From Octopus vulgaris (taxonomy: Eukaryota): a stretch of 64,000 nucleotides of DNA. Each line of letters starts with the position of its first letter. Position 1 is the stretch's first letter. The translations under genes and the position numbers were made by a program. Below the pieces are notes generated by a model. It was not told the DNA's origin, did no database searches, and saw only the letters and a list, made by a program, of their open reading frames with translations. This document shows, piece after piece, positions 1 through 60,310 of this stretch. The stretch spans positions 32,116,001 through 32,180,000 of the forward strand of contig OX597816.1 of assembly GCA_951406725.2 (NCBI GenBank), given 5' to 3'.

Positions 1-861
1 TAAGATCTTTTTCACTCTCCTACAGAAACACTTCCCCACCCAACATAAGTACTACACTATCCTAAATAAGAACACTATTAGACTCTCCTACTCTACCACG
101 CCCAATCTAGCCAGGAACCTAGCCAACAACAATGTGAAAAAACTTAACACATCTACTTTCTCCGGGGCCCATCCAACGTCCGATAGCAATTGCAACTGCC
201 ACGATAAAACCACCTGCCCCCTCAACAACAACTGCCTACAGAGGGACCTAGTATATAAATGCGAGGTAAGATCAGGCCTTGACGATAAAAGTAAATCCTA
301 CATTGGAATGACGTCAAACAGCTTTAAGACCCGCTGCTACGCACATACACACTCGTTCCGGCGACAGGATAAATCCAACCAAACTACCCTCGCCGCCCAC
401 ATCTGGTACCTTAAAAGGAACTCAATCCCCTTCAAGACCAAGTGGAAACTACTACAGAAGGCGCGCTCGTACACAGGAGGACATACCTGCTGTGACCTAT
501 GCATATCAGAGAGCCTAGAGATCTTGTTCGCCAAAGGCCCTCTCCTTAACAAATTTTCAGAACACTCCCCAAATTGCATGCATAAGAAGTATGCGAACTA
601 CAAGAACTATAGACCTACCCGGCAACCTGATTGATGACAACCCCCCCTACAACCCCCTCCCCCCAACCCCACTGTTCCCCTAGCACCCCCGATTACCTTT
701 TCTCCTAAGACCTTTCACATATTATATGTGCACGCTTGTATATGTGTATCGTATGTATGTATATATGTATAGAAATGCATGGGTACAGTAGGAATATACG
801 CATGTATTATGTGTGTGTGTGTGTATGTATGCATGTAGAAATATATATATGTATATGTATT

Positions 862-900
<39 letters not shown>

Positions 901-935
901 GCTTGTATGTGTGTGTGTGTGTACATGTGTATATG
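1..935 (+). mobile_element. Penelope-like element fragment (endonuclease region plus start of 3' UTR), runs off the window start
   Basis: Near-perfect reverse complement of ~4590-5527 (position 1 pairs with 5527); encodes a GIY-YIG domain. Confidence 0.9.
2..634 (+). CDS. PLE linker plus GIY-YIG endonuclease (C-terminal part of RT-EN polyprotein)
   Basis: Frame open from base 2 (KIFFTLLQKHFPTQHKYY...NTIRLSYS); CNC..CPL...CL, LVYKC, YIGMT, FKTR..H..SF, HIWYLK, CDLCISE, LLNK.SE...CMH motifs; ends TGA TGA. Confidence 0.88.
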   Translation, partial: KIFFTLLQKHFPTQHKYYTILNKNTIRLSYSTTPNLARNLANNNVKKLNTSTFSGAHPTSDSNCNCHDKTTCPLNNNCLQRDLVYKCEVRSGLDDKSKSYIGMTSNSFKTRCYAHTHSFRRQDKSNQTTLAAHIWYLKRNSIPFKTKWKLLQKARSYTGGHTCCDLCISESLEILFAKGPLLNKFSEHSPNCMHKKYANYKNYRPTRQPD

Positions 936-940
936 GGTTT

Positions 941-1585
941 CCCGGTCCAGGAATCGAAACCACAATCTTACGATCATGATGTTGACATCCTAACCACAAA
1001 GACACGCGCCTCTACCAATTATGAATAGACAAATATATAACTACATATAGTTCTGTAGTAAATCGTAGAATTAGATTCCTTTGCCAGAATATATATCGAG
1101 AGAGCTCCGTTCACTGTAACTAATTGTCGCGGGCGCGTTTGGAAGCGTCTAGATTTTGAGTTACAGGACTGTTCTGGAAAGCTCTTCTTTTAAAAACAGT
1201 TCACAAATCAAGAGATTTGCCATCAGCTATTATCCTAGAGGCAGTCACGCCTTTACTGTGTCGTAATCTCTTCTTTGTTATTACATATATGATTTTCCTG
1301 CAAAGACAATTTAATTCTAATGTTTGCACAACAAACTTTTGTAATTTGTAATTCTAGATTTAAGTTACTAAACTTTGCAATTCAAATAATAGTAAATATA
1401 ATTTTATGTGGCAATTCGTAGATTTACTTCTTTCCTTCTTTTGTACAAGGAATTTTGTTACTTTGCCACTCGCGGCTCTATCTCAACTAGTAACGATCAG
1501 ATAACTCTCCGCCAAACTGTTTATTGACCACTACATTTTTAAATGCCTAATCATACAAACATAAACACACACACACACATGTATG

Positions 1586-1643
<58 letters not shown>

Positions 1644-1935
1644 GGTCCCGGGTTGATTCGGGGTTAACCACAGTAAGTAAGGTACTCAATACATAGCAGA
1701 GTAAAATTAATTTATTATATAGAAGGAGCTTCTACAGGACTAGTACTGTTTCATTCAAGAGAAATCTTCAGGAAGCTATTTAACAAGAATTGTATTAGCA
1801 TTTATACATTTAGGCAGGTTTAAAGGAGTGGTGGTGGGGGACTTTTTTGGGGGTAGGCATAGCGCAAAATATCATACTTGGGGGAGTGGTCAAGGAGTCA
1901 GTGGTAAGTTAGATGAAAGAATAGATAAATAAAAA
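941..1935 (-). repeat. Inverted duplicate of ~6090-7114 (pLTR, ~700 bp flank and truncated SINE head)
   Basis: 941 cccggtccaggaatcgaaac is the reverse complement of the sequence ending at 7114; colinear to ~1935 with only isolated substitutions and TA-length differences. Confidence 0.92.
1727..1777 (-). ncRNA. Type I hammerhead ribozyme (PLE family 1)
   Basis: Minus strand reads agcttc CUGAAGA uuuc-ucuu-gaau GAAA cag-uacuaguc-cug UA gaagcu: helix I agcttc/gaagct, core boxes, GUA cleavage triplet. Confidence 0.85.
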
Positions 1936-2039
1936 AAAAAAAAAATATATATATAAAAAATATATATATAAAAATATATATATATAAAAAAAGATAGAGT
2001 TATAGGTAAATAAGGAGATTCTCACTTATACCTATACAC

Positions 2040-2069
2040 ACATGTATACGTATCTACACACACATATAT

Positions 2070-2110
<41 letters not shown>

Positions 2111-2994
2111 TATACATATACATATATACACACATACATACATATCTACATACACACATACATTCACCCGCCCACATATACAAATTTATACACATGCACA
2201 TGCCTATACCTGTCTACACATACACACACGTATATATGCATACACTCACTCCCATGCATGCACGCATACACACATGTATATATAAATATACCCACGACCA
2301 CACATACATATATACACAGAAAAATATATATTCATACGCACATACACTCATGCACACACAACACACCTAGTTCCCTATATACACATATTTACACCTATAT
2401 ATACATACACCCACATACACACATGCACATATATATACATATATATATATATACATATACACGCATACATATATATACATGTGTGCACATACATACATAT
2501 ACACATATACATACACATACACATACACATGTGTACCTATACATACCTACACATACACATATACATACATACATATATATACATATATATATATACAATC
2601 CAATACAGGCCCATTCCCTAATTTTAATTTTATTATCTTCATTTATTACTTTTGTTATCTTTGATCGCTAGAGCTAAGGATCCTGGCTATGGCAGCATGT
2701 CCATATGTCTGTCTACTAGAAGGCAAGTACTCATTCCCGCACACACACTCATTAGCACGTACATTCACCCATTCGTACACTCATACACATACACGTACGC
2801 ACGCGTTATATTCATACATACAAACATCTACATACGTTCACGTATATACACATACGTACTCGTACCTACAGATTCGTGTCTACACTTTAGGAGGCTAGTC
2901 TATACATATACACCAATAAATATACATATATATATATATATACACATATACATACACACACACACATATATACTCCTACATACAGATACATACC

Positions 2995-3056
<62 letters not shown>

Positions 3057-3234
3057 TACATACATACACATACACACACATATATACACACACACACATA
3101 CACATATATATACATACACAAACATATGTACACACATATATATACATACACACATACACACATACATACGTATACATACATACATACATACATACATCCA
3201 TACTTACATGCATTTATACGCATACACACACCCA

Positions 3235-3271
<37 letters not shown>

Positions 3272-3550
3272 TCACACATACATATACAAATATACGCACA
3301 CACATACATACATACACGTATACACATACACGCACCTACACATATACATGCGTACCCATACACGTGCACACACGCACGCGCATCCATATATATACACACA
3401 CACACATATATATACACGTGTGCAAGCATACATACATACTCATACGCGCACACATACTTACATATACATATATGCACACACTTACACACATATATATATA
3501 CATACATATATACATGCATACATACATATATGCATACATACACACACGCA

Positions 3551-3616
<66 letters not shown>

Positions 3617-3898
3617 CACATACACATACATACACATATACATATACATACACATACACATACATACACATATATACACATATATACACATACACACATA
3701 CATATATACACATATACATACATATACATACACGCACACATACATATATACATATACACTGATACACATACCCATACATATATATATATATACACACACA
3801 CACATATACACATGCATATACTTATATCTCTACATACTCACATATATAAACATATATACACATACACGCACATATACATACATGTACATACACATACG

Positions 3899-3947
<49 letters not shown>

Positions 3948-3949
3948 AC

Positions 3950-3982
<33 letters not shown>

Positions 3983-4288
3983 TACATATACACATATACA
4001 TGTATACATACGCAATAATGATACACATATATACACATACACACACACAGACATATGCATATACATACATATATATATAAATTACATATCTATATAAATA
4101 CATACATAATACACATACACACACGTATATATATATACATGCATATACATATACAAGTATACATACACATACATACACACACACGCGCACACATACATAT
4201 ACACACACACATATACAAATACATACATACACACATACACACACACACATATATACATACATGTACACATATACATATATATATATAT
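2040..4288. repeat. Complex (TA)/(CA)/(TACA) low-complexity tract inside the PLE 3' UTR
   Basis: Direct reading; homologous tract at ~53500-56110. Confidence 0.95.
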
Positions 4289-4620
4289 CAACAAGGGAGG
4301 GTAAAGTTAATTAGTTATTAATCAATTTCATCAAGTGTTCAGTATGTAAAGGGACCATTATTATTTTGAGTAAACAATGTTAGAGGGAAAAATTCTCTAA
4401 GTAGTGGAAGAGGCTAAAAAACTTTATTGGCTGCTATTTCTAGAAAGTTTAGTATGTGGCAAAGTAATTTATTTTATTTTACTAAGCCCTAATTATATAA
4501 TATTTTATACATACATACACATACATAAACACATACATTTACACATACATATGCATATACATATATACACATATACATACACACACATATACACATATAC
4601 ACACACACACACATACAATC

Positions 4621-4665
<45 letters not shown>

Positions 4666-4893
4666 AATACATATACATATATATATTTCTACATGCATAC
4701 ATACACACACACACACATAATACATGCGTATATTCCTACTGTACCCATGCATTTCTATACATATATACATACATACGATACACATATACAAGCGTGCACA
4801 TATAATATGTGAAAGGTCTTAGGAGAAAAGGTAATCGGGGGTGCTAGGGGAACAGTGTGGTTGGGGGGAGGGGGTTGTAGGGGGTGGTTGTCA

Positions 4894-5571
4894 TCAATCA
4901 GGTTGCCGGGTAGGTCTATAGTTCTTGTAGTTCGCATACTTCTTATGCATGCAATTTGGGGAGTGTTCTGAAAATTTGTTAAGGAGAGGGCCTTTTGCGA
5001 ACAAGATCTCTAGGCTCTCTGATATGCATAGGTCACAGCAGGTATGTCCTCCTGTGTACGAGCGCGCCTTCTGTAGTAGTTTCCACTTGGTCTTGAAGGG
5101 GATTGAGTTCCTTTTAAGGTACCAGATGTGGGCGGCGAGGGTAGTTTGGTTGGATTTATCCTGTCGCCGGAACGAGTGTGTATGTGCGTAGCAGCGGGTC
5201 TTAAAGCTGTTTGACGTCATTCCAATGTAGGATTTACTTTTATCGTCAAGGCCTGATCTTACCTCGCATTTATATACTAGGTCCCTCTGTAGGCAGTTGT
5301 TGTTGAGGGGGCAGGTGGTTTTATCGTGGCAGTTGCAATTGCTATCGGACGTTGGATGGGCCCCGGAGAAAGTAGATGTGTTAAGTTTTTTCACATTGTT
5401 GTTGGCTAGGTTCCTGGCTAGATTGGGCGTGGTAGAGTAGGAGAGTCTAATAGTGTTCTTATTTAGGATAGTGTAGTACTTATGTTGGGTGGGGAAGTGT
5501 TTCTGTAGGAGAGTGAAAAAGATCTTAGCTACAGGTGTAGCGACCTCACGGTTGAAGGGGGGTTGTACCAG
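4894..5571 (-). pseudogene. PLE linker plus GIY-YIG endonuclease frame, out of frame with the RT at a C6 run (5557-5562)
   Basis: ORF 4894-5394 gives the same protein as 134-634; frame extends upstream to FNREVATPVAKIFF. Confidence 0.85.
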
Positions 5572-5956
5572 CTAATGTGTCTTCGTCTATTTTTCCTGGG
5601 TTGGCGTGGGGCTATACTAGTGTAGGTAATCTTATCTTTAAAACCACTACGGGCCAGGGCCTCGTTGTAATAGGGGGCTGCGGCCTTAAAGATATCTTCC
5701 GTGGCGGACAGGCTAGAGATTCTAATTGAGACACTTTTTACTAGGTTATCTAATATATTTCTGGGGTGGTTGGAATTGATATCTATATATCTAAGGGATT
5801 CATTTGGTTTGTGGTACGGGTAATAAAGTGAGGTTTTTAAGTCGAGGGTGACATCTAGGAAGTTAGCCTTTGTTAAGTTGGATTCTAGGGTAATCCTAAG
5901 GCCTAAGTTTTTAAAGAAGGTGTGAAGATTTTTCCGGAACCCATCCGTGGTCCTGG

Positions 5957-6030
5957 TCTAGATTTAAGTTACTAAACTTTGCAATTCAAATAATAGTAAA
6001 TATAATTTTATGTGGCAATTCGTAGATTTA
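5957..6030 (+). repeat. 74-bp templated insertion copied from 1353-1426
   Basis: tctagatttaagttactaaac...gcaattcgtagattta matches 1353-1426 directly and ~6627-6701 inverted; sits at the PLE truncation junction. Confidence 0.9.
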
Positions 6031-6089
6031 TTTTATTTATTTATTTTATTCGTAGATTTATTTTATTTATTTTTTTTTTATTTTTTTAT

Positions 6090-6382
6090 TTTTTTATTTA
6101 TCTATTCTTTCATCTAACTTACCACTGACTCCTTGACCACTCCCCCAAGTATGATATTTTGCGCTATGCCTACCCCCAAAAAAGTCCCCCACCACCACTC
6201 CTTTAAACCTGCCTAAATGTATAAATGCTAATACAATTCTTGTTAAATAGCTTCCTGAAGATTTCTCTTGAATGAAACAGTACTAGTCCTGTAGAAGCTC
6301 CTTCTATATAATAAATTAATTTTACTCTGCTATGTATTGAGTACCTTACTTACTGTGGTTAACCCCGAATCAACCCGGGACC

Positions 6383-6383
<1 letters not shown>
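6090..6383 (+). mobile_element. PLE family 1 3' terminal repeat (pLTR), sense orientation, ending in (TA)n
   Basis: Reverse complement of 1643-1935; contains hammerhead 6249-6299. Confidence 0.88.
6249..6299 (+). ncRNA. Type I hammerhead ribozyme (PLE family 1)
   Basis: agcttc 6249-54, CTGAAGA 6255-61, short helix II, GAAA 6274-77, helix III cag/ctg, GTA ending 6293, gaagct 6294-99. Confidence 0.87.
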
Positions 6384-6468
<85 letters not shown>

Positions 6469-7042
6469 CATACATGTGTGTGTGTGTGTTTATGTTTGTA
6501 TGATTAGGCATTTAGAAATGTAGTGGTCAATAAACAGTTTGGCGGAGAGTTATCTGATCGTTACTAGTTGAGATAGAGCCGCGAGTGGCAAAGTAACAAA
6601 ATTCCTTGTACAAAAGAAGGAAAGAAGTAAATCTACGAATTGCCACATAAAATTATATTTACTATTATTTGAATTGCAAAGTTTAGTAACTTAAATCTAG
6701 AATTACAAATTACAAAAGTTTGTTGTGCAAATATTAGAATTAAATTGTCTTTGCAGGAAAATCATATATGTAATAACAAAGAAGAGATTACGACACAGTA
6801 AAGGCGTGACTGCCTCTAGGATAATAGCTGATGGCAAATCTCTTGATTTGTGAACTGTTTTTAAAAAGAAGAGCTTTCCAGAACAGTCCTGTAACTCAAA
6901 ATCTAGACGCTTCCAAACGCGCCCGCGACAATTAGTTACAGTGAACGGAGCTCTCTCGATATATATTCTGGCAAAGGAATCTAATTCTACGATTTACTAC
7001 AGAACTATATGTAGTTATATATTTGTCTATTCATAATTGGTA

Positions 7043-7300
7043 GAGGCGCGTGTCTTTGTGGTTAGGATGTCAACATCATGATCGTAAGATTGTGGTTTCG
7101 ATTCCTGGACCGGGCAACGCGTTGTGTTCTTGAGCAAGAAACTTCCTTTCATGTTGCTCCAGTTCACTCAGCTAGCAAAAATGAGTAACGCTGCAATGGA
7201 TTGGCGTCCTGTCCAGCTGCGGAAGACAAACGCAATTGAAACTGGGAAACCGGACCCATAAGCATGGCTAGGCTTTAAAAGGGTGTATTTATATTTTTTA
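7043..7300 (+). mobile_element. tRNA-derived SINE
   Basis: Pol III A-box-like gtggttagg and B-box-like ggtttcgattcc, then gttgtgttcttgagcaag body; related head on the minus strand at ~42635-42730. Confidence 0.75.
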
Positions 7301-9935: not shown

Positions 9936-9977
<42 letters not shown>

Positions 9978-9980
<3 letters not shown>

Positions 9981-10124
9981 TAAACACATAAATGTGAAAC
10001 AAGGTGGAAAAAAGATTACTCAAATACCAGGGGTAGAGTAATATGCTTTATTTAAAAGCAGCAGAAATTCAACAGAACCTGTTACTCGGAGTTTCACGTT
10101 CCCGTTCGTCGGACAGTTTTGTTA
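9978..10124 (-). mobile_element. ~147-bp hammerhead-bearing mini element (family 2) inserted in (TA)n
   Basis: Reverse complement matches 52806-52952; flanked by TA repeats on both sides. Confidence 0.8.
10079..10116 (-). ncRNA. Minimal type I hammerhead, CCGACGA core variant (family 2)
   Basis: Minus strand: cugu CCGACGA acg-ggaa-cgu GAAAC uccga GUA acag; helix I extends via aacaaaac/guucuguu. Confidence 0.7.
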
Positions 10125-14595: not shown

Positions 14596-16830
14596 CGGTC
14601 TGGGCAGCAGCCATCTATGCTAGATCTGGTATTATCCCGCTATCCAAGATCAGTGTCAGACGTATCTGTGTGCGCCCCTCTTGCCAAGAGTGATCATGCG
14701 GTCCTGAAGTTCGTCATGCACACAACCTTTTCCACGCCCACGTTTACTTCGCTGCCACGTAGAGTCTTCTCTGCAATTAATCTTTAAATTCTAACCGAGG
14801 CTTCCGCGCTCCTGGACTGGCGTTCCCTGATGACGTTGTCCTCAGTTGACGAACTATGGTCATCCCTCAAAGCATATGTAATCTGTTTGACTGACCAGGC
14901 AGTTCCCGTTGGACTTCCCAAGAGGAAGAAACACAAGCCCTGGGTGACGAAGAAGGTTAAACGAGAACGTCGACTCAGAGATATTGCTTGGGCTGAATTC
15001 AAAAATCTGGATTCGACTGCAGCTTTTGAGGTGTACAAAACTCAACGAGACCGAGCCGTGAAAATTGAAATGAAAGAAAGCTTCAGTTATGAATACAAAA
15101 TCGCGGCAAATGCCAGTAGCAATCCAAAAACCTTCTTTGCCCATGTCCAGCGGAATTCCCGCTTGAACAACCAGATTGTAACATTGGTAGACTCAACAGG
15201 CGTATCGATTGAGGACCCTTATCAACAGAGTCAATTATTTGCCGAGGCTTTTTCAACTATTTTCAAACAAGATGATGGTCGTGAACCCCCTCCATTTGAT
15301 AGATCGGTACCTCCAATGCTTCGATTGATCATCACGCGGGACCAAGTCAAACGTGTTATTCAAGGCCTCGATGTCAACAAGGGTCACGGCCCTGACGGCA
15401 TACACCCACGGGTTATCAAAGCGTTGGCTCCGGTCATCTGCGAGCCCTTAACACCACTATTCAATATGTCATTGGCGACGGGTGTTATACCTGCAGACTG
15501 GAGAACAGCGATAATCTGCCCAATTTTCAAGAAAGGGAGCCGCGAAGACCCGCTTAACTACCGACCGGTTTCCCTTACATCAATAATCAGCAAGATGTTC
15601 GAAACCATCCTTAAGAAAAGTATGATGCTCCACCTCCTAAGCACAGCCTCGATCACTGATTCCCAACACGGCTTCGTGCCGAAGAGATCATGCTTGACCA
15701 ACTTACTAGTAATGGAAGAATTGGTGACGCGCATCCTCGATGATAGTGATGCTGTTGACATCGTTTTATTGGACTTTGCCAAAGCTTTTGACTCGGTAAA
15801 CCACCGCCTACTACTTGTCAAGCTTCAAGCATATAGTTTCCATCCGGATATTGTACGATGGGTTGGTGCCTTCCTCTCAGATCGCTCCTTCCAAGTTCAA
15901 GTTAATGGTTCGCGGTCCGACGTCTCCAGTGCGAGCAGTGGCGTGCCTCAAGGTTCAGTGCTTGGGCCCTTGTTGTTCTTAGTCTTCATAAATGACTTGC
16001 CCGACGACCTCACGCAACACACCCTTCTATTTGCCGACGATATCAAACTGGTCGCTCCTCGCGGTAGTATAGAGGATCTTCGTCGATGCCTCCACCAAAT
16101 TTGGAAGTGGTCTAACGATTGGGACCTGTGTCTGAACGTGTCAAAGTGCTGTCATCTGCCTGTCGGCTCTACTCCTGCAACTCAACTTGATTTCGAGCCG
16201 GGTCGTCTGCTGCTGGAGAGGACCGATCAGGTAAAGGACCTGGGTATCTTGGTGGATTCCTCCTTTTCGCCTTCGGCCCAGTGCGTCCATGCTGCCAACA
16301 AAGCGCGCGGAATTCTGTTTTTGATTCGACGGTCATTCGGAATGCTCACAGCAGCCATATTCCTGCCACTCTATGTCAAGCTGGTGAGACCCATATTGGA
16401 GTATGGGATTCAAGCCTCTTCTCCTTATCTCCTCAAAGACATACCGCACCTCGAAAGAGTCCAGAGGCTGGCTACCCGCATGGTTCATGGTCTCAAAAAT
16501 TTGTCCTAGGAAGAAAGGCTGAGGACGCTCGACCTTTATTCTCTTGAAAAACGCCGCCGCCGTGGTGATCTCATTCTCGCCCACAACATCATAAGCGGGA
16601 AGTGTAACCTCTCGAAAGAGCTGTTCTTCACTCCTGCTCCGGAGCGTCGGCTGCGGGGTCATTCCGAAAAGCTCTACCTGCGACGATTTCATCTCAATCG
16701 AAGGAGAGGAGCTTTCTCCGTCCGGGTTGCGGATCCGTGGAACAAGCTGCCAGATGAGATGGTGAAGATGCCGACGACCGCTTTGTTCAAAGCCTCCCTG
16801 GACCTCTAGTGTCCTGAACTCTTTACATGA
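14596..16830 (+). pseudogene. LINE ORF2 (end of APE endonuclease plus reverse transcriptase) with in-frame stops
   Basis: One frame: LDLV, KSDHAV, stop 14785, GPDGIHP, NYRPVSLTS, QHGF, DFAKAFDSV, GVPQGSVLGP, FADD, stop 16507, EERL..LDLYSLEKRR.RGDLI, WNKLP, stop 16807. Confidence 0.9.
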
Positions 16831-18920: not shown

Positions 18921-19145
18921 GCTATACTAGGCATTTCATTCCAGTGTACATAATTCTATAGGAAAAAAATGTGTTTTGAATGAGCTAAAAATAAAATGGA
19001 ATCACATTCATATATAACTGTTGCTCTAAATGAGCAGGGGAGATTACCTTCTTATTAAACACGTTATAACTTATATCGGATTGGACTCAATATGATAGAG
19101 TCCGGTATAATTTATATTAAAACAATTTAGAAAAGTTCCGCTATA

Positions 19146-19547
19146 GGCGCAGGAGTGGCTGTGTGTTAAGTAGCTTGCTAACCAGCCACATGGTTCCGGG
19201 TTCAGACCTACTGCGTAGCATCTTGGGTAAGTGTCTTCTGCTATGGCCCCGGGCCGACCAATGCCTTGTGAGTGGATTTGGTAGACAGAAACTGAAAGAA
19301 GCCTGTCGTATATATGTATATATATATGTGTGTGTGTTTGTGCGTCTTTGTTTGTCCCCCTACCATTGCTTGACAATCGATGCTTGTGGTTTACGTCCCC
19401 GTCACTTAGCGGTTCGGCAAAAGAGACCGATAGAGTAAGTACTCGGCTTACAAAAAATAAGTCCCGGGGTCGATTTGCTCGACTAAAGGCGGTGCTCCAG
19501 CATGACCGCAGTCAAATGACTGAAACAAGTAAAAGAGTAAAAGAGTA
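19146..19547 (+). mobile_element. tRNA-derived SINE with internal TA/TG microsatellite and (aaagagta) tail
   Basis: ggcgcaggagtggctgtgtg...ggttccgggttcag head; shared body with 30504-30935 and 32157-32416. Confidence 0.85.
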
Positions 19548-30400: not shown

Positions 30401-30503
30401 TTGTGCTTTTCATCACTGTTTACTCTTTTCTTCCAGTTGTTTTCAATTTGGTATATTGATTGAGATTTGTATCCGATGTAATTAAATTTTCCGATACATT
30501 ATA

Positions 30504-30668
30504 GGCGTAGGAGTGGCTGTGTGATAAATAGCTTGCTTACCGACCACATGCTTCCAGGTTCAGTCCCACTGTGTGGCACCTTGGGAAAATGTCTTCTGCT
30601 ATAGTCTCGGGCCAACCGAAGACTTGTGAGTGGATTTGGCAGACGGAAACTTAAAGAAGCCCGTTGTA

Positions 30669-30699
<31 letters not shown>

Positions 30700-30935
30700 T
30701 GTGTGTGTGTATCTGTGTGTGTCTGTGTTTGTCCCCCCCGACATCGCTTGACAACCGATGCTGGTGTGTTTACGTCCCCGTAACTTAGCGGTTCAGCAAA
30801 AGAGTTCGATAGAATAAGTACAGGCTTAGAAAGAATAAGTCCTGGGGTCAATTCGTTCGACTAAAAGTCGGTGCTCCAGCATGGCCACAACCAAATGGCT
30901 GAAACAACTAAACGATTAAAATAGTAAAAGAGTAT
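30504..30935 (+). mobile_element. tRNA-derived SINE (family of 19146)
   Basis: Colinear with 19146-19547. Confidence 0.85.
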
Positions 30936-32158: not shown

Positions 32159-32414
32159 TCTCTTTTCTCTTTTACTTGTTTCAGTCATTTGACTGCGGCC
32201 ATGCTGGAGCATCGCCTTTAATCGAGCAACTCGACCCCGGGACTTATTCTTTGTAAGTCCAGTACTTAATATATCGGTGTCTTTTGCCGAACCGCTATGT
32301 GACGGGGATATAAACATACAAGCATTGGGTGTCAAGCAATGCTAGGGGAACAAACACTGAACCCGGAACCATGTGGTTGGTAAACAAGCTACTTACTACA
32401 CAGCCACTCCTGCG

Positions 32415-32416
<2 letters not shown>
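32157..32416 (-). mobile_element. SINE (family of 19146), internally deleted
   Basis: Reverse complement of tail and head with the middle missing. Confidence 0.85.
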
Positions 32417-32497
<81 letters not shown>

Positions 32498-47862: not shown

Positions 47863-47930
<68 letters not shown>

Positions 47931-48112
47931 CATATATATATAAACGTTGGGCTTCTTTCAGTTTCCTTCTACCAAATCCAATCACAAGGCTTTAGTTGTC
48001 CCGAGGTTATACTAGAATTCACTTGGTGAATATGGGACAAAACGCAGCGGGATATAACGTAGAACTGAGTGCTTGGGGAGCAAGCTTCTCACCACACAGC
48101 CACACCTGCTCC
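47770..48112 (-). mobile_element. Degenerate SINE (family of 19146) with expanded (CA)n
   Basis: gggcttctttcagtttcc...ctaccaaatcca...tcacaaggc...ccacacagccacacctgc. Confidence 0.65.
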
Positions 48113-48146
48113 TTTATATCTATCTGTCTACCTACCTACCTACCTA

Positions 48147-52722: not shown

Positions 52723-52952
52723 TTATTTAAAAGCAGCAGAAATTCAACAAAACCTGTTACTCGGAGTTTCACGTTCCTGTTCGACGGACAGTTTTGTTAG
52801 AACTTTAACAAAACTGTCCGACGAACGGGAACGTAAAGCTCCGAGTAACAGGTTTTCTTGAATTTCTGGTGATTTTAAATAAAGCATATTACTCTACCCC
52901 TGGTATTTGAGTACTCTTTTTTCCACCTTGTTTCACATGTATGTGTTTACTC
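52723..52952. mobile_element. Family 2 mini element as a head-to-head palindrome of two (mutated) hammerheads plus tail
   Basis: Arms 52723-52799 and 52806-52882 are reverse complements; right arm continues into the tail shared with 9978-10050. Confidence 0.82.
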
Positions 52953-53060
52953 CGGTATATATATATGTATGTATATATTTATCTATCTATCAATCAATCT
53001 ATCTATCTACCTATAAACAAGCAAATACACACACTCACACACATTTCATACGTACATATG

Positions 53061-53136
<76 letters not shown>

Positions 53137-53217
53137 TCCCGGGTTGATTCGGGGTTAACCACAGTAAATAAGGTACTCAATACATAGCAGAGTAAAATTA
53201 ATTTATTATATAGAAGG

Positions 53218-53268
53218 AGCTTCTACAGGACTAGAACTGTTTCATTCAAGAGAAATCTTCAGGAAGCT
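53218..53268 (-). ncRNA. Type I hammerhead ribozyme (PLE family 1)
   Basis: Same fold as 6249-6299; only change is in loop 3 (uucuaguc). Confidence 0.85.
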
Positions 53269-53821
53269 AGTTAACAAGAATTGTATTGGCATTTATACAT
53301 TTAGGCGGGTTTAAAGGGGTGGTGGTGGGGGACTTTTTGGGGGTAGGCATAGCGCAAAAAAATCATACTTGGGGGGAGTGGTCAAGGAGTCAGTGGTAAA
53401 TTAGATAGAAAAATAAATAAAAGAATAAAAAAAAGGGAATAAAAATATATATAGAAGAATAGAGTTTTAGGTAAATAAGGAAATTCTATCTTATACCTAT
53501 ACACATATGTATACATATATACACACACACACACAGAAATACATACACACATACATACACACACACCCATATATATATATACACACATACATATACATAC
53601 ATATATCTACATATATATATATATATATACATACACATATACATGCATATACATATACACACACACATGTATATATACACACACACGACCACACATACAC
53701 ATACACACAAAAAATATATACATACACACACATACACATACACACATACACACACAAATCCACATACACACATGCACACACAACACACAAGTCCCTATAT
53801 AATTATATATACATATACACA

Positions 53822-53859
<38 letters not shown>

Positions 53860-54307
53860 CACATATGTGTTCCTATTCATACCTACACATACACACATAT
53901 ACATACAAATACAAACCCATTCCCTAATTTGAATTTTATTATCTTCATTTATTACTTTTGTTATCTTTGACCGCTGGTCACAAGCATCTTGGCTACGACA
54001 GCTAGTCCCTTTCATCTTTCTACTTGAGCACAAGCACTCACTCACGCACGCACACTCATTAGCACGCACACTCACTCATTCGTACACTCATACACATACA
54101 CGCACGCACGCGTTATATTCATACATACATACATCTACATACATACACGTATATACACATACGTACGCGTACCTACAGATTCATGTCTACAATCTTAGAA
54201 GACTAGTCTATACGTATACACCAATAAATATATATACACACATACATATACACCTACATACAAATACATACATACATATATATACACACATATATATATA
54301 TACACAT

Positions 54308-54360
<53 letters not shown>

Positions 54361-54876
54361 CATACATACATACACCCATACATACATACATACATATATA
54401 CACACATACACACACCCACACGTATACATATACATACATATACGCGCATGCATACACATACAAATACATACACATACACATATACATATACATACATATA
54501 TATATATACACATACATACATATACATACATATACATATATACACACACACATACATACACATATACACATACACGCACATACACATATACATGCCTACC
54601 CATACACACTCACACACGCGCGCATCCATTTATACACATAAGTACACACATGCGTAAAAGTATACATATATCTATGCTTACACATACACACACACACACG
54701 CCATTCCTTATATTCATACTTACATGCATACTCAAAAAATAAGTAATAAAATATATATACGTGCAGTTATTCATACATGCATACTCAAAAAATAAATAAT
54801 AAATAATAAAAAATAAATATTAAGTATATATACGTGCAGTTACCTATTATACAGACGGATACATACATATAAACTT

Positions 54877-54921
<45 letters not shown>

Positions 54922-55172
54922 CACATATACATATATATATACATATACACCTACATACATACACACATACATATACATATACACACATACACACACATAT
55001 ACATATATACACACACACAATACATATACATACACACATACATACACATATATATACACATACATATATATACATATATATATATATATATACATACACA
55101 TACATGTGTGCAAACATACATACATACTCATACACACTCACACACTTACATATACATATATACACACACACT

Positions 55173-55230
<58 letters not shown>

Positions 55231-55233
<3 letters not shown>

Positions 55234-55400
55234 GGTCCCGGGTTGATTCATTAACACACAGTAAAATTAATTTATTATATAGAAGGAGCTTCTACACATA
55301 CTAGTACTGTTTCATTCAAGAGAAATCTTCAGGAGCTTCCTGATAGATTTCTTGAATGAAACAGTACTAGTCCTGTAGAAGCTCCTTCTATATAATAAAT
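55231..55400. mobile_element. Family 1 mini insert: 3' tail plus head-to-head hammerhead pair, nested in the element's own TA tract
   Basis: Minus-strand hammerhead 55287-55337 and plus-strand hammerhead 55334-55383 overlap at agct; both carry small indels. Confidence 0.78.
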
Positions 55401-55529
55401 ATATATATATACACACTATATATATACATATATACACACACTACACACACATATATATATATATGTATACATATATATACACACACATATATACACACAT
55501 ACACATATGTACACATACACACACATATT

Positions 55530-55587
<58 letters not shown>

Positions 55588-55638
55588 TATATATATATAC
55601 ACACACACACATATATATATATATATACACATACACAC

Positions 55639-55686
<48 letters not shown>

Positions 55687-55766
55687 GTACATACATACAC
55701 ATACACATACATATACATATACATATACATATACACATGCACATACGTATAACTCTACCTACCCAC

Positions 55767-55797
<31 letters not shown>

Positions 55798-55957
55798 TAT
55801 ATATATACATACACATATGTATATATACACACATATATATATACCCATCTACAATCTGTATATACACACACATACATGCACATACACATAACTCTACATA
55901 CCTACATATACATCGACATACTCGCGTACACTCATATATATATATATATATACACAT

Positions 55958-56014
<57 letters not shown>

Positions 56015-56061
56015 CACACGCACATACATATACATATATATATACATACACACACACACAT

Positions 56062-56115
<54 letters not shown>

Positions 56116-56410
56116 CAATTGAGGGTAAAGTTAATTAGTTATTAATCAATTTCACCAAGTATTCAGAATGTAAAAGGACCATTATTTTTTTGAGTAAACA
56201 TTGTCTGAGAGAAAATTTTCTTTAAGTAGTGGAAAAGGCTAAAAAACTTATTTGGCTGCTATTTCTAGAAAGTTCAGTATGTGGCAAAGTAATTTATTTT
56301 ACTAAGCCCTAATTATATAATATTTTATATATACATACACATACATACACACATACATATACACATACATATGCATACACACACATATACATACATACAT
56401 ATACACACAC

Positions 56411-56442
<32 letters not shown>

Positions 56443-56631
56443 TTACATACATACACACACACACACACATAATACATGCGTATATTCCTACTATACCCAT
56501 ACATTTCTATACATATATACGATACACATATACAAGCGTGCACATACAATATGTGAAAGGTCTTAGGAGAAAAGGTAGTCGGGGGTGCTAGGGGAACGGT
56601 GGGATTGGGGGGGTTTGTGGGTGGGGTGTCA

Positions 56632-57309
56632 TCAATCTGGTTGCCGGGTAGGTCTATAGTTCTTGTAGTTTGCATAATTCTTATGCATGCAATTTGGGGA
56701 GTGTTCTGAGATCTTGTTAAGGAGAGGGCCTTTGGCGAAAAAGATCTCTAGGCTCTCCGAAATGCAAAGGTCACAGCAGGTATGGCCTCCTGTGTACGAA
56801 CGCGCCTTCTGTAGTAGTTTCCACTTGGTCTTGAAGGGGATGGAGTTCCTTTTAAGGTACCAGATGTGGGCGGCGAGGGTAGTTTGGTTGGATTTAGCCG
56901 GTCGCCGGAACGAGTGTCTGTGTGCGTACCAACGGGTCTTAAAGCTGTTTGACGTCATTCCGATGTAGGATTTTCTTTTATCATCAGGGCCTGATCTTAC
57001 CTCGCATGTATATACTAGGTCCCTCTGTAGGCAGTTGTTGTTGAGGGGGCAGGTGGTTTTATCAGGGCAGTTGCAATTGCTATCGGACGTTGGATGGGCC
57101 TCGGAAAAAGTAGATATGTTAAGTTTTTTCACATTGTTGTTGGCTAGGTTCCTGGCTAGATTGGGCGTGGTAGAGTAGGAGAGTCTAATAGTGTTCTTAT
57201 TTAGGATAGTGTAGTACTTATGTTGGGTGGGGAAGTGTTTCTGTAGGAGAGTGAAGAAGATTTTAGCTACAGGTGTAGCGACCTCACGGTTGAAGGGGGG
57301 TTGTACCAG
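56632..57309 (-). pseudogene. PLE linker plus GIY-YIG endonuclease frame
   Basis: ORF 56632-57132 closely matches 134-634; frame open upstream to a TAG near 57310. Confidence 0.88.
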
Positions 57310-58140
57310 CTAATGTATCTTCGTCTATTTTTCCTGGGTTGGCGTGCGGCTATGCTAGTATAGGTAATCTTATCTTTAAAGCCACTGCGGGCCAGGGCCT
57401 CGTTGTAATAGGGGGCTGCGGCCTTAAAGATATCTTCTGTGGCGGACAGGCTAGAAATTCTAATTGAGACACTTTTTACTAGGTTATCTAATATATTTTT
57501 GGGGTGGTTGGAATTAATATCTATATATCTAAGGGATTCATTTGGTTTGTGGTACGGGTAATAAAGTGGGGTTTTTAAGTCGAGGGTGACGTCAAGGAAG
57601 TTAGCTTTGGTTAAGTTGGATTCTAAGGTAATCCTAAGGCCTAAGTTTTTAAAGAAGGTGTAAAGATTTTTCCAGAACCCATCCGTGGTCCTGGGGTTTA
57701 TTTTGTGGAGGGCGAAAAGGCCGTCATCGCGGTAAAGACCACCGGAGAGGCCTGTGAATAGGGTTTTCAGCCTATGGAGGATGAAAAGGCCCACTAGGTC
57801 ACTTATTTCAGCCCGAGTCGCTAGCACCCATGCTGACGTCGAAGGGGGTCACAGATTTTTTTGTTGATCCAGTGGGATCCGTCGTGGAAAAGAAAAGTCT
57901 TACGTGCGTGGAGGATCACATCTTGCTCGGCCTCGGTGATGGTGGAGGACCTCCTGGCGAAGTTAATCAGTCGGACCGACGGTTTATTTTCGAAATGGTC
58001 TTTGTGGTCTTTCAGGGGTTCAGTTCGGTCATCGATTTTAAGGGAGGTGGCAATCTCTTTCCTGGCTAAGTTGGTTTCAGTTAGCGCTGTGTCGTCTACT
58101 TTCTTGTACTTAGCTGTGATGGCGTTATCAGTTAGTCTGT
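57295..58140 (-). pseudogene. PLE reverse transcriptase, 5'-truncated, internally deleted and frameshifted
   Basis: KDHKDHFENKPSVRLIN, ARKTFLF, FDVSMG, AEISDLVGLFIL, GLYRDDGL, NFLDVTLDL, SNHP, SWYNPP. Confidence 0.88.
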
Positions 58141-58462
58141 TGTAGACATGAATCTGTAGGTACGCGTACGTATGTGTATATACGTGTATGTATGTAGATG
58201 TATGTATGTATGAATATAACGCGTGCGTGCGTGTATGTGTATGAGTGTACGAATGAGTGAGTGTGCGTGCTAATGAGTGTGCGTGCGTGAGTGAGTGCTT
58301 GTGCTCAAGTAGAAAGATAAAAGGGACTAGCTGTCGATGCTTGTTACCAGCGGTCAAAGATAACAAAAGTAATAAATGAAGATAATAAAATTCAAATTAG
58401 GGAATGGGTTTGTATTTGTATGTATATGTGTGTATGTGTAGGTATGAATAGGAACACATATG

Positions 58463-58508
<46 letters not shown>

Positions 58509-58697
58509 TGTGTATATGTATATATGAGTATATAGGGACTTGTGTGTTTTCTGTGCATGTGTGTATGTGGATTTGTGTGTGTATGTGTGTATGTGTATGT
58601 GTGTGTATGTATATATTTTTTTGTGTGTATGTGTATGTGTGGTCGTGTGTGTGTATATATACATGTGTGTGTGTATATGTATATGCATGTATATGTG

Positions 58698-58735
<38 letters not shown>

Positions 58736-59076
58736 GATATATGTATGTATATGTATGTGTGTATATATATATATATATGGGTGTGTGTGTATGTATGTGT
58801 GTATGTATATGTGTGTATGTGTGTGTATATATGTATACATATGTGTATAGGTATAAGTGAGAATTTCCTTATTTAGCTAAAACTCTATTCTTCTATATAT
58901 TTTTTTATTCCCTTTTTTTATTCTTTTATTTATTCTTCTATCTAATTTACCACTGACTCCTTGACCACTCCCCCAAGTATGATTTTTTTGCGCTATGCCT
59001 ACCCCCAAAAAGTCCCCCACCACCACCTCTTTAAACCCGCCTAAATGTATAAATGCCAATACAATTCTTGTTAACT

Positions 59077-59127
59077 AGCTTCCTGAAGGTTTCTCTTGAA
59101 TGAAACAGTTCTAGTCCTGTAGAAGCT
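59077..59127 (+). ncRNA. Type I hammerhead (family 1) with core change CUGAAGA to CUGAAGG
   Basis: agcttc ctgaagg tttctcttgaat gaaa cag ttctagtc ctg ta gaagct. Confidence 0.75.
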
Positions 59128-60310
59128 CCTTCTATATAATAAATATATATATATATATATATCCATACATGACATATATACAATGCTCACTTGTATCTAA
59201 TATCATTGGCGCATCCTACCCCAACATTTACGCAAATGCTCGAAATACTACGTTTTTATAATAAAGCGCAATAGAAAATGACGCCGGTTCTTCAGATCCA
59301 ATCTACTTTTCACGCACTTTTCACACGTATTCGTATATATGTATAAGTATGTATATATGTATGTATATGAGTACGTGAGTGTGCCTGTGTTCATATGTAT
59401 GTATAAATGCGTATTTATATCTCTACAAAGAATACATTCTAAGTTGCTATCCGGTTTGCATCCAACTTAGCATACACATACACACACTCATTCACACATA
59501 CACACGTTCACACATGCACGCACACGCACGCGTACGCGCACAACACACGTCATGTTTCTTCTTCTTATGAGCATGCATGTATTGAAGTGTCTACGTTAAT
59601 ATTTCATATGATTATGACTGCAATTGCTCTTTTTTGTAATTGATCTTGTTTACATTACATTATTTCTTTTAAACGTGTAGATTCCCCATATTCAGAGAGA
59701 GAGAGAGATGATGGAGAGAGAGGAGGGAGAGAGAGCAAATGAAATAGGGAGAAAGTGCGAGTGCGTGTGTGATAGATAGCATCTGCTGCATGTTTTCAGA
59801 CACTTGGTATCTTGCATAAACACGGAAAATCTCCGAATCATTTTGCAAATGTTTAGCCTCCTTCATAATTCTTTATTATGCCACCGTATTTATTCTTTTC
59901 AGTTCAAAGACAGCTACTGTTATCCTACGCACTTTTACTTTCTTCTATGGAATCTGACATGCCTGAATCCTTAGACATATTCACTCACCCTGTGGCACAG
60001 AACTTTATTGAATTTTCAGATTTTATTAACTGGTTTCAACCTACGCTGATTTATTTCTATCTTTCTCCAAGTAAAATACATTTACTGGTTCACATTTGTT
60101 CCTTCTTTTTTCTCGAAGAAATATCACTTGCCTACTGATCATATAAGCCTAATATTTTCTTTCAAATATTTGACGATTCGAAATATTACTTACTGGAGTA
60201 CATTAAATGTAATTAGTAACCGAAGAAGAAACAAGTTCTTTGAGTTTCTATATTCCAGTTAACATATAAAATCATATATTTTTCTGAATATATCTCTTAT
60301 ATATAAGGAA

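What the first reader, a model, noticed from the sequence alone, without database searches (positions are those of the whole stretch)
55231..55400. Second, independent head-to-head hammerhead palindrome (family 1) with the same architecture
Seen: tail plus minus-strand hammerhead folds back at agct (5' strand of helix I) into a plus-strand hammerhead that ends at CTTCTATATAATAAAT; absent from the equivalent region of the first copy. A family with unrelated sequence shows the same design at 52723. Inference: a general class of ~170-230 bp palindromic ribozyme inserts made when PLE RT copies an uncleaved hammerhead and switches strand at helix I. This is my best candidate for an undescribed system in the window.
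Basis: partly seen in the sequence, partly recalled or inferred. Interest (0 to 1): 0.72.

Follow-up and report, generated by a model that had tools for sequence, protein, structure and literature searches.

The report
Twin run-off stub of Penelope retrotransposon
This 170-base mirror-image sequence is one of over a thousand stub insertions of a Penelope-like jumping gene in this genome, and the stubs likely form when two short DNA copies, one started from each cut strand, run off the start of the element's RNA and are joined end to end, which would explain how these elements make their long-puzzling inverted ends.

Summary
The palindrome is real (z = -15.9). It is a separate insertion nested in the (TA)n of a 6-kb Penelope-like element (53133-59144) of the same family and layout: one arm with a 69-nt tail, one inverted arm without. 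About 1,100 such stubs exist genome-wide (721 + 389 exact-pattern loci); only 19 have both arms running past AGCT. The hotspot is real, but helix I is probably not its cause. A TATA box lies at -29 from AGCT; arms ending there gain an extra C (539 versus 54 G); unpaired solo arms stop there too; and either arm can be the longer (27 versus 33). Best reading: two cDNAs, from two internal start sites and two target nicks, run off the capped RNA 5' end and are end-joined. It is an insertion by-product of a Hydra-clade element, not a ribozyme system. Inverted ends, tails and opposed hammerheads are in print; this mechanism was not found in my searches. The RNA start is inferred, not shown. This scan noted the same on other DNA, including this genome.

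The parts
55231..55269 (-). Tail (stretch between the two inferred RT start sites, +69 to +137 of the inferred transcript); net 30 nt shorter than in intact copies
55270..55337 (-). Tail-side arm: copy of inferred +1 to +68; hammerhead-like motif 55287-55337, predicted cut between 55292 and 55293; helix III 3' strand altered in this copy
   Evidence: motif read by hand
55334..55337 (.). Junction AGCT; one-base-short class shared exactly with 138 other loci; A = inferred transcription start and first base of helix I
55334..55400 (+). Tailless arm: copy of inferred +1 to +68; hammerhead-like motif 55334-55383, predicted cut after 55377; one extra base in the core and a 2-base loss in stem II as assembled
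55149..55230 (.). Left target: (TA)n inside the host element's 3' UTR; about 30 nt recur at about 55424-55453 (possible target duplication, low complexity, uncertain)
   Evidence: empty-site look-alike L139
53133..58140 (-). Host insertion, tail-side arm: 5'-truncated RT + GIY-YIG ORF (56632-58140, frameshifted), 3-kb microsatellite-rich 3' UTR, promoter (TATA box starting 53297), motif 53268-53201, tail; A-allele subfamily, whereas the stub is T-allele
58141..59144 (+). Host insertion, inverted tailless arm, ending at the same +68 base as the stub; TATA box starting 59048
52723..52955 (+). Family-2 stub with the same layout (tailless arm, junction near 52800, tail arm)

Best explanation
55231-55400 is a stub-sized insertion of a Hydra-type Penelope-like retrotransposon, likely built from two short cDNAs that ran off the capped 5' end of the element's RNA and were likely joined end to end by microhomology repair. 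Shown: the layout, the counts, the hard stop at AGCT, the extra C, the TATA box at -29, the full-length parent (promoter, AGCT, hammerhead motif, tail, ATG at +183, RT-GIY-YIG ORF of about 715 aa). Inferred steps: (1) Pol II starts at the A of AGCT, so the hammerhead motif is the first 51 nt of the mRNA; (2) the protein, probably as a dimer, nicks both strands of (TA)n; (3) one nick primes RT at +137 (tail arm), the other at +68 (tailless arm), on the same pLTR copy and probably the same RNA; (4) on the 5' pLTR both cDNAs run through the uncleaved motif to +1 and copy the cap as C; on the 3' pLTR they run on into the 3' UTR and ORF and give the kb-long inverted insertions; (5) the two identical 3' ends anneal by the self-complementary AGCT, or by other short matches after trimming, with templated fill-ins. 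The stub lacks the promoter and is a dead end; a transcript across it would fold into one 65-bp hairpin, not two ribozymes.
For: Hard stop: 721 loci with spacer up to 30 nt; in 47 parsed of the first 50, arm ends lie at reference positions 132-137, 56 of 94 at 137 = AGCT, none beyond; only 19 loci have both arms past it within 80 nt although 6-bp palindromes lie there. Promoter: TATAWAWR starts at -29 in 4 of 4 window copies, chance about 0.002 by composition. Extra base after AAGCT genome-wide: C 539, G 54 of 3,214; 15 of 17 arms at junctions with inserted bases; L1 full-length insertions carry a cap-derived extra G (PMC11702581, passages). Solo arms: 4 of 20 further C-loci stop at AGCT+C and join target DNA, no partner arm in the 9.4 kb beyond; 2 are tailless. 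Two primers: tail on exactly one arm in 86 of 88 parsed stubs; tail arm longer 27, equal 26, tailless longer 33. Same layout in 19 of 19 long pairs. Same template: subfamily allele matches between arms in 47 of 48 stubs and 19 of 19 long pairs; no run-off arm was seen joined to a run-through arm among the 47 + 20 loci read. In vitro, a Penelope protein nicks and extends both strands, starts RT at two internal sites bounding the tail, uses uncleaved RNA, and is predicted to be a dimer (PMC11167929, main text). Family 2: at least one arm reaches an initiator-like A in 31 of 47 stubs (hand count), with a CCAAT box upstream.
Against: No 5' end was observed: only contigs were available. AGCT is both the inferred start and the first base of helix I, so position alone cannot separate them; in family 2 the two lie only 2-5 nt apart. 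Family 2 shows no extra-C bias, and 4 of 47 of its stubs run 5-6 nt past the inferred start. An extra C also appears at two other ends (3 loci, 1), so it may be partly terminal-transferase activity; CC can also be templated by helix I (CCT is the commonest next triplet, 8 of 20). The largest single class (243 loci) has no extra base. Unequal arms could come from later breakage at the palindrome centre. One stub has discordant alleles (L001), and a complex locus left out of the count (L094) too. Parsed loci are the first listed on contigs C1-C2, not a random draw; exact patterns miss diverged copies, including this one.
Confidence: 0.72

Rival explanations
1. One reading: one cDNA starts at the tail, RT stalls at helix I of the uncleaved hammerhead, the cDNA folds back at AGCT and RT copies it back to the (TA)n; later central deletions make the unequal junctions.
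For: The stop is exactly the first base of helix I. Arms share alleles in 47 of 48, and one private variant is in both arms of L007. Self-priming is the published reading of palindromic junctions (PMC3846280, passages). Central break repair of palindromes is established (recalled).
Against: Solo tailless arms exist, so +68 is a start, not the end of a back-copy. Long insertions end at the same +68 with kb-long arms, either of which can be the longer. Up to about 2,100 of 3,214 copies run through helix I. A zero-loop fold-back (243 loci) is sterically poor (inference). True helix-I pairing junctions are 2 of the first 50. RT should stall on entering a helix, not after leaving it (inference).
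Confidence: 0.1
2. Two cDNAs as in the best reading, but the RNA end at AGCT is made by processing (5'-3' decay halted at the folded or protein-bound hammerhead, or a nuclease cut at the stem base), and the C is untemplated.
For: The end coincides with the helix base in family 1 and nearly so in family 2; extra C at other ends; no C bias in family 2.
Against: A consensus TATA box at canonical spacing and an initiator-like A in family 2 would be coincidences.
Confidence: 0.12
3. The stubs are a self-spreading non-autonomous ribozyme element (retrozyme- or MITE-like) amplified as a unit.
For: High copy number; two junction forms recur exactly 243 and 138 times.
Against: Both subfamily alleles occur in both junction classes and the one-base-short form faces either way, so the forms arose repeatedly; many junction variants; no promoter in the stub; no tandem arrays of stubs among the loci read; continuum with long insertions.
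Confidence: 0.04
4. Long-read fold-back artefact.
For: This copy's private indels are unconfirmed; indels limited to one arm are frequent in other loci.
Against: Same site in hundreds of loci with different, non-duplicated flanks and a one-sided tail; a contig crossing the junction in a family form is present in 3 of 4 runs, one of them not marked as a possible source.
Confidence: 0.02

Closest known systems
Hydra clade of C-terminal EN+ Penelope-like elements (Craig et al. 2021, PMC8557442; section on Hydra read, other passages, supplement rows)
   Same: RT then GIY-YIG; DKT; CxCX5C linker; CxxC and CxH in the endonuclease; (TA)n target; hammerhead motif; inverted 5'-truncated copy with a tail at one end.
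   Different: RWR instead of RWK; unit about 5.2 kb (long microsatellite 3' UTR) against under 3 kb; tail 69 nt against 30-40; by eye a different family from Hydra-1_Obim; the paper gives no stub class and no mechanism beyond endonuclease-mediated resolution.
Typical Penelope structure, Adineta vaga Pen2a/Pen3 (Arkhipova et al. 2013, PMC3846280; passages)
   Same: Head-to-head inverted pLTR, one-sided tail, palindromes at the inverted junction, TATA and initiator-like motifs in the pLTR.
   Different: That paper proposes self-priming on an antisense template; the junctions here favour two sense-templated cDNAs. It describes no ORF-less stubs in number.
PAc Poseidon element in vitro (Frangieh et al. 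2024, PMC11167929; main text read)
   Same: Two internal RT start sites bounding the tail, both target strands extended, uncleaved hammerhead RNA as substrate, AT-rich target.
   Different: No joined product or inverted end was explained; there the ORF starts inside the ribozyme, here at +183.
Opposed minimal hammerheads in Schistosoma (Cervera and de la Pena 2014, PMC4209133; results and discussion read)
   Same: Dual motifs about 100-700 bp apart on opposite strands, tied to truncated PLEs; palindromic helix III.
   Different: Noted in one sentence, no junction analysis; the usual G10.1-C11.1 pair is missing here.
L1 twin priming and cap-derived extra G (PMC11702581; passages)
   Same: Both target ends primed, cDNAs resolved by end joining with microhomology, cap copied at full-length ends.
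   Different: L1's second primer copies a different, upstream part of the RNA (inversion without duplication); here both cDNAs copy the same 68 nt from fixed sites.
Animal non-LTR retrozymes (bioRxiv 10.64898/2026.07.22.740005; abstract, introduction and part of methods)
   Same: Non-coding, type I hammerhead, PLE-derived.
   Different: Retrozymes are head-to-tail tandem units; these are head-to-head one-off stubs without promoter.

Membership tests
EN+ Penelope-like element insertion | pLTR joined to a single RT + GIY-YIG ORF | tested here: met
   5 of 8 fetched long regions (L216, L217, L218, L221, L222) show motif and tail running into the ORF start; open frames of 722 and 718 aa in L216, L218. 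Domains read from motifs; Pfam and PDB gave no relevant match.
EN+ Penelope-like element insertion | Inverted 5'-truncated copy with tail at one end only | tested here: met
   86 of 88 parsed stubs; 19 of 19 long pairs.
EN+ Penelope-like element insertion | Partial tandems forming pLTRs | tested here: met
   L217, spacing 5,193.
Hydra clade | DKT, CxCX5C linker, CxxC and CxH in place of CCHH, (TA)n target | tested here: met
   Read in L216 and L218 against the definition and the printed alignment, by eye.
Hydra clade | RWK motif; length under 3 kb | tested here: inconclusive
   RWR here; unit about 5.2 kb. The paper says 'generally' short.
Hydra clade | Placement in the RT phylogeny | not tested
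   No tree built; reference proteins were seen only in a paper supplement.
Type I (minimal) hammerhead ribozyme | Core CUGANGA, GAAA, UH in order; helix I; palindromic helix III | tested here: met
   Seen directly in intact family copies: 6-bp helix I, near-palindromic helix III. The plus arm of this copy has an extra core base as assembled.
Type I (minimal) hammerhead ribozyme | Helix II closed by G10.1-C11.1; match to a curated model | tested here: not met
   U-U at that place; no hammerhead family among 48 Rfam matches; predicted folds differ. The motif is therefore called hammerhead-like.
Type I (minimal) hammerhead ribozyme | Self-cleavage | not testable with these tools
   Hint only: in L118 both arms end at the predicted cut; L097 and L106 are compatible.
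Non-LTR retrozyme | Head-to-tail tandem units, each with a hammerhead | tested here: not met
   Stubs are single head-to-head inserts.

The most novel reading that the evidence does not exclude
Penelope-like elements integrate by a twin-TPRT: one RNP primes both target strands from two fixed internal sites on one RNA and the cDNAs are end-joined. The stubs are its strong-stop products, about half of all insertions of this family, and read out the capped start, both RT start sites and a rare ribozyme cut from genome sequence alone. The ribozyme motif sits at the very 5' end of the mRNA.
Probability: 0.62. Interest if true: 0.65.

Novelty: new variant of a known kind. Interest (0 to 1): 0.48.

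Why it matters
How Penelope-like elements make inverted ends and a one-sided tail is named as open in PMC8557442, and the published idea is self-priming on antisense RNA (PMC3846280). Over a thousand 200-bp stubs of one young family give a sharp prediction that the existing in vitro system (PMC11167929) can test: move the RNA 5' end and the fold point moves; remove the cap and the extra C goes. The stubs also map start sites without RNA data, and each is a 65-bp perfect hairpin if transcribed, a possible source of double-stranded RNA (untested). It is not a new ribozyme system, and this scan has reached the same reading on other DNA.

Tried and rejected
DNA search of the own genome returned nothing because common words are skipped; patterns were used instead. 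Rfam on the whole window was swamped by microsatellite matches to miRNA models (150 of 224 rows shown) and on the stub gave hairpin matches only. Pfam and PDB sequences did not recognise the ORF. First junction parse over-extended with gaps and was replaced by exact matching; 3 of 50 loci did not parse, and 9 of the first 50 were not fetched. No RNA holder listed. Contigs cannot show starts: depth steps near 6250 in runs guessed as RNA may be graph branch points and were not used; no strand-changing joint was listed. Cover of 55231-55254 was missing in 3 of 4 runs. Microhomology alone as the cause of the hotspot was rejected: 6-bp palindromes in helix III are used in about 1 of the first 50 and the one just upstream in 1 of 19. 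Literature searches found no paper giving twin priming or a stub class for PLEs; subscription journals and bioRxiv supplements are not covered, and Arkhipova 2006 and Evgen'ev and Arkhipova 2005 were not read.

Full report
Observation. The window is G000:C3:32116001-32180000 of a 2.8-Gb genome; size, contig number and (TA)n richness suggest an octopus (my inference; earlier notes of this scan say so too). 55231-55400 is a real near-palindrome (z = -15.9) with a tail on the left, arms meeting at AGCT 55334-55337 and a right end at 55400. It is absent from the matching part of the first copy.

Context. The stub lies in the 3' UTR microsatellite of a larger insertion, 53133-59144, whose minus strand carries a broken RT and GIY-YIG ORF and whose layout is the same: a tail arm and an inverted tailless arm ending at the same base, 59144. 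The stub has the T allele in helix III and the host the A allele, so it came from the other subfamily. Full-length copies elsewhere read promoter, AGCT, motif, tail, ATG at +183 or +184 and an open frame of 718-722 aa, with the motifs that define the Hydra clade (by eye, no tree). Pfam and PDB did not recognise it.

Genome-wide counts, all exact patterns and so lower bounds. 3,214 copies of a 19-mer ending in AAGCT. 721 inverted pairs with up to 30 nt between, among them 243 perfect palindromes on AGCT and 138 of this copy's one-base-short form. 389 more join inside the motif. Only 19 have both arms going on past AGCT within 80 nt. In 47 parsed of the first 50, arm ends fall at 132-137, 56 of 94 at 137, none beyond. 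Nineteen long pairs of 0.3-10 kb, out of 20 regions fetched (the other was a stub beside a tandem), have the same one-tail layout: the stubs are the short end of ordinary insertions.

Why the stop is at AGCT. A TATAWAWR box starts at -29 from the A in 4 of 4 window copies (chance about 0.002). After AAGCT the native base is A; genome-wide 539 copies have C and 54 have G, and 15 of 17 arms at junctions with inserted bases have C. An extra G on the sense strand is the mark of a copied cap in full-length L1 insertions (PMC11702581, passages). Four of 20 further C-loci are solo arms that stop at AGCT+C and join target DNA with no partner in the 9.4 kb beyond, so the stop needs no fold-back. In family 2 (47 stubs, 917 copies of a 21-mer) at least one arm reaches an initiator-like A in 31 of 47 by hand count, 2-5 nt outside helix I depending on how far the helix is drawn, with a CCAAT box upstream. 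Against: family 2 shows no C bias, 4 of its stubs run 5-6 nt further, an extra C shows at two other ends, CC could be templated by helix I, and no RNA end was observed.

One cDNA or two. The tail is on exactly one arm in 86 of 88 parsed stubs; the tail arm is longer in 27, equal in 26, the tailless arm longer in 33 (binomial p = 0.52). In this copy the tailless arm is complete and the tail arm is the trimmed one. Where the tailless arm is longer, neither arm contains the other, which a single fold-back cannot give unless the centre was broken later; that remains possible. Two solo tailless C-arms show +68 to be a start in its own right; 63 of 105 tailless ends lie at +68 (overlapping loci not removed). 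Junctions show microhomologies of up to 6 nt and templated fill-ins, as in microhomology-mediated end joining (recalled). Alleles match between arms in 47 of 48 stubs and 19 of 19 long pairs, with one shared private change against eight one-arm changes (4 loci left out, one of them discordant), which suggests one RNA or one source locus. This fits the in vitro findings on a Penelope protein: both strands nicked and extended, two RT starts bounding the tail, uncleaved RNA used (PMC11167929, main text).

The ribozyme. Core motifs, a 6-bp helix I and a near-palindromic helix III are seen directly, but helix II lacks the usual G-C pair, Rfam finds nothing and predicted folds differ. Nearly all arms pass the predicted cut. 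A few end there (L118 on both arms; L097 and L106 compatible), a hint of rare cleavage. In the stub the arm-to-arm hairpin (-85 kcal/mol) would override either fold (inference).

Artefact check. Only contigs were available. A family-type junction crossing 55334 is in contigs of 3 of 4 runs, one not marked as a possible source; this copy's private indels were not seen in the listed rows and may be assembly errors.

What is known. Inverted copies with a one-sided tail are typical of these elements (PMC8557442, passages and one section; PMC3846280, passages); opposed hammerheads 100-700 bp apart were noted in Schistosoma (PMC4209133); Drosophila Penelope has a TATA-less internal promoter in its pLTR (PMC2377424, passages), unlike the TATA box here. 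The published reading of junction palindromes is self-priming on an antisense template. Seven searches found no paper with twin priming or a stub class for PLEs; most subscription papers are not covered. This scan has 234 notes with these words in at least 36 genomes, many with the same reading; my reading was written down before I looked, and those notes are not independent support.

Verdict. Interest 0.48, for a testable route to an open mechanistic question.

Noticed in passing
window 1-7118: The first copy has tails at both ends, and host flank 937-1643 is repeated inverted at 6411-7118 (99%), with a 77-bp piece 5957-6033 copied from 1353-1429: a complex rearrangement or an assembly fold-back.
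   Followed up: no
L118 (G000:C2:62516258-62516306): Both arms end exactly at the predicted ribozyme cut, with an (AT)n filler between: possible record of cleavage in vivo.
   Followed up: partly
L189 (G000:C3:164707231): A tail arm runs off at +1 and continues on the antisense ORF from about +331: a template jump that would make a partial tandem.
   Followed up: no
G000:C17:27730163, C23:3283757, C28:3290582, C2:24200861: Perfect palindromes that need one extra C at ends other than +1; either minor start sites or untemplated C addition.
   Followed up: no
window 9943-10124: Solo family-2 arm with tail, cut off at the same point where the 52723 stub turns. Family 2 has C at core position 4; its parent ORF was not sought.
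   Followed up: partly
L007: Both arms share a private substitution: same template molecule, or later conversion between arms.
   Followed up: partly
L216-L218, +128 to +150 and +60 to +80: Both inferred RT start sites lie at AT-rich words (the tail end is followed by ATAT), so priming may use short homology to the (TA)n target.
   Followed up: no
window 14788-16509: 573-aa open frame of a non-LTR reverse transcriptase, CR1/L2-like by recalled motifs.
   Followed up: no
window 19142-19547, 30500-30926, 32160-32420, 47878-48124: Four copies of another dispersed repeat.
   Followed up: no
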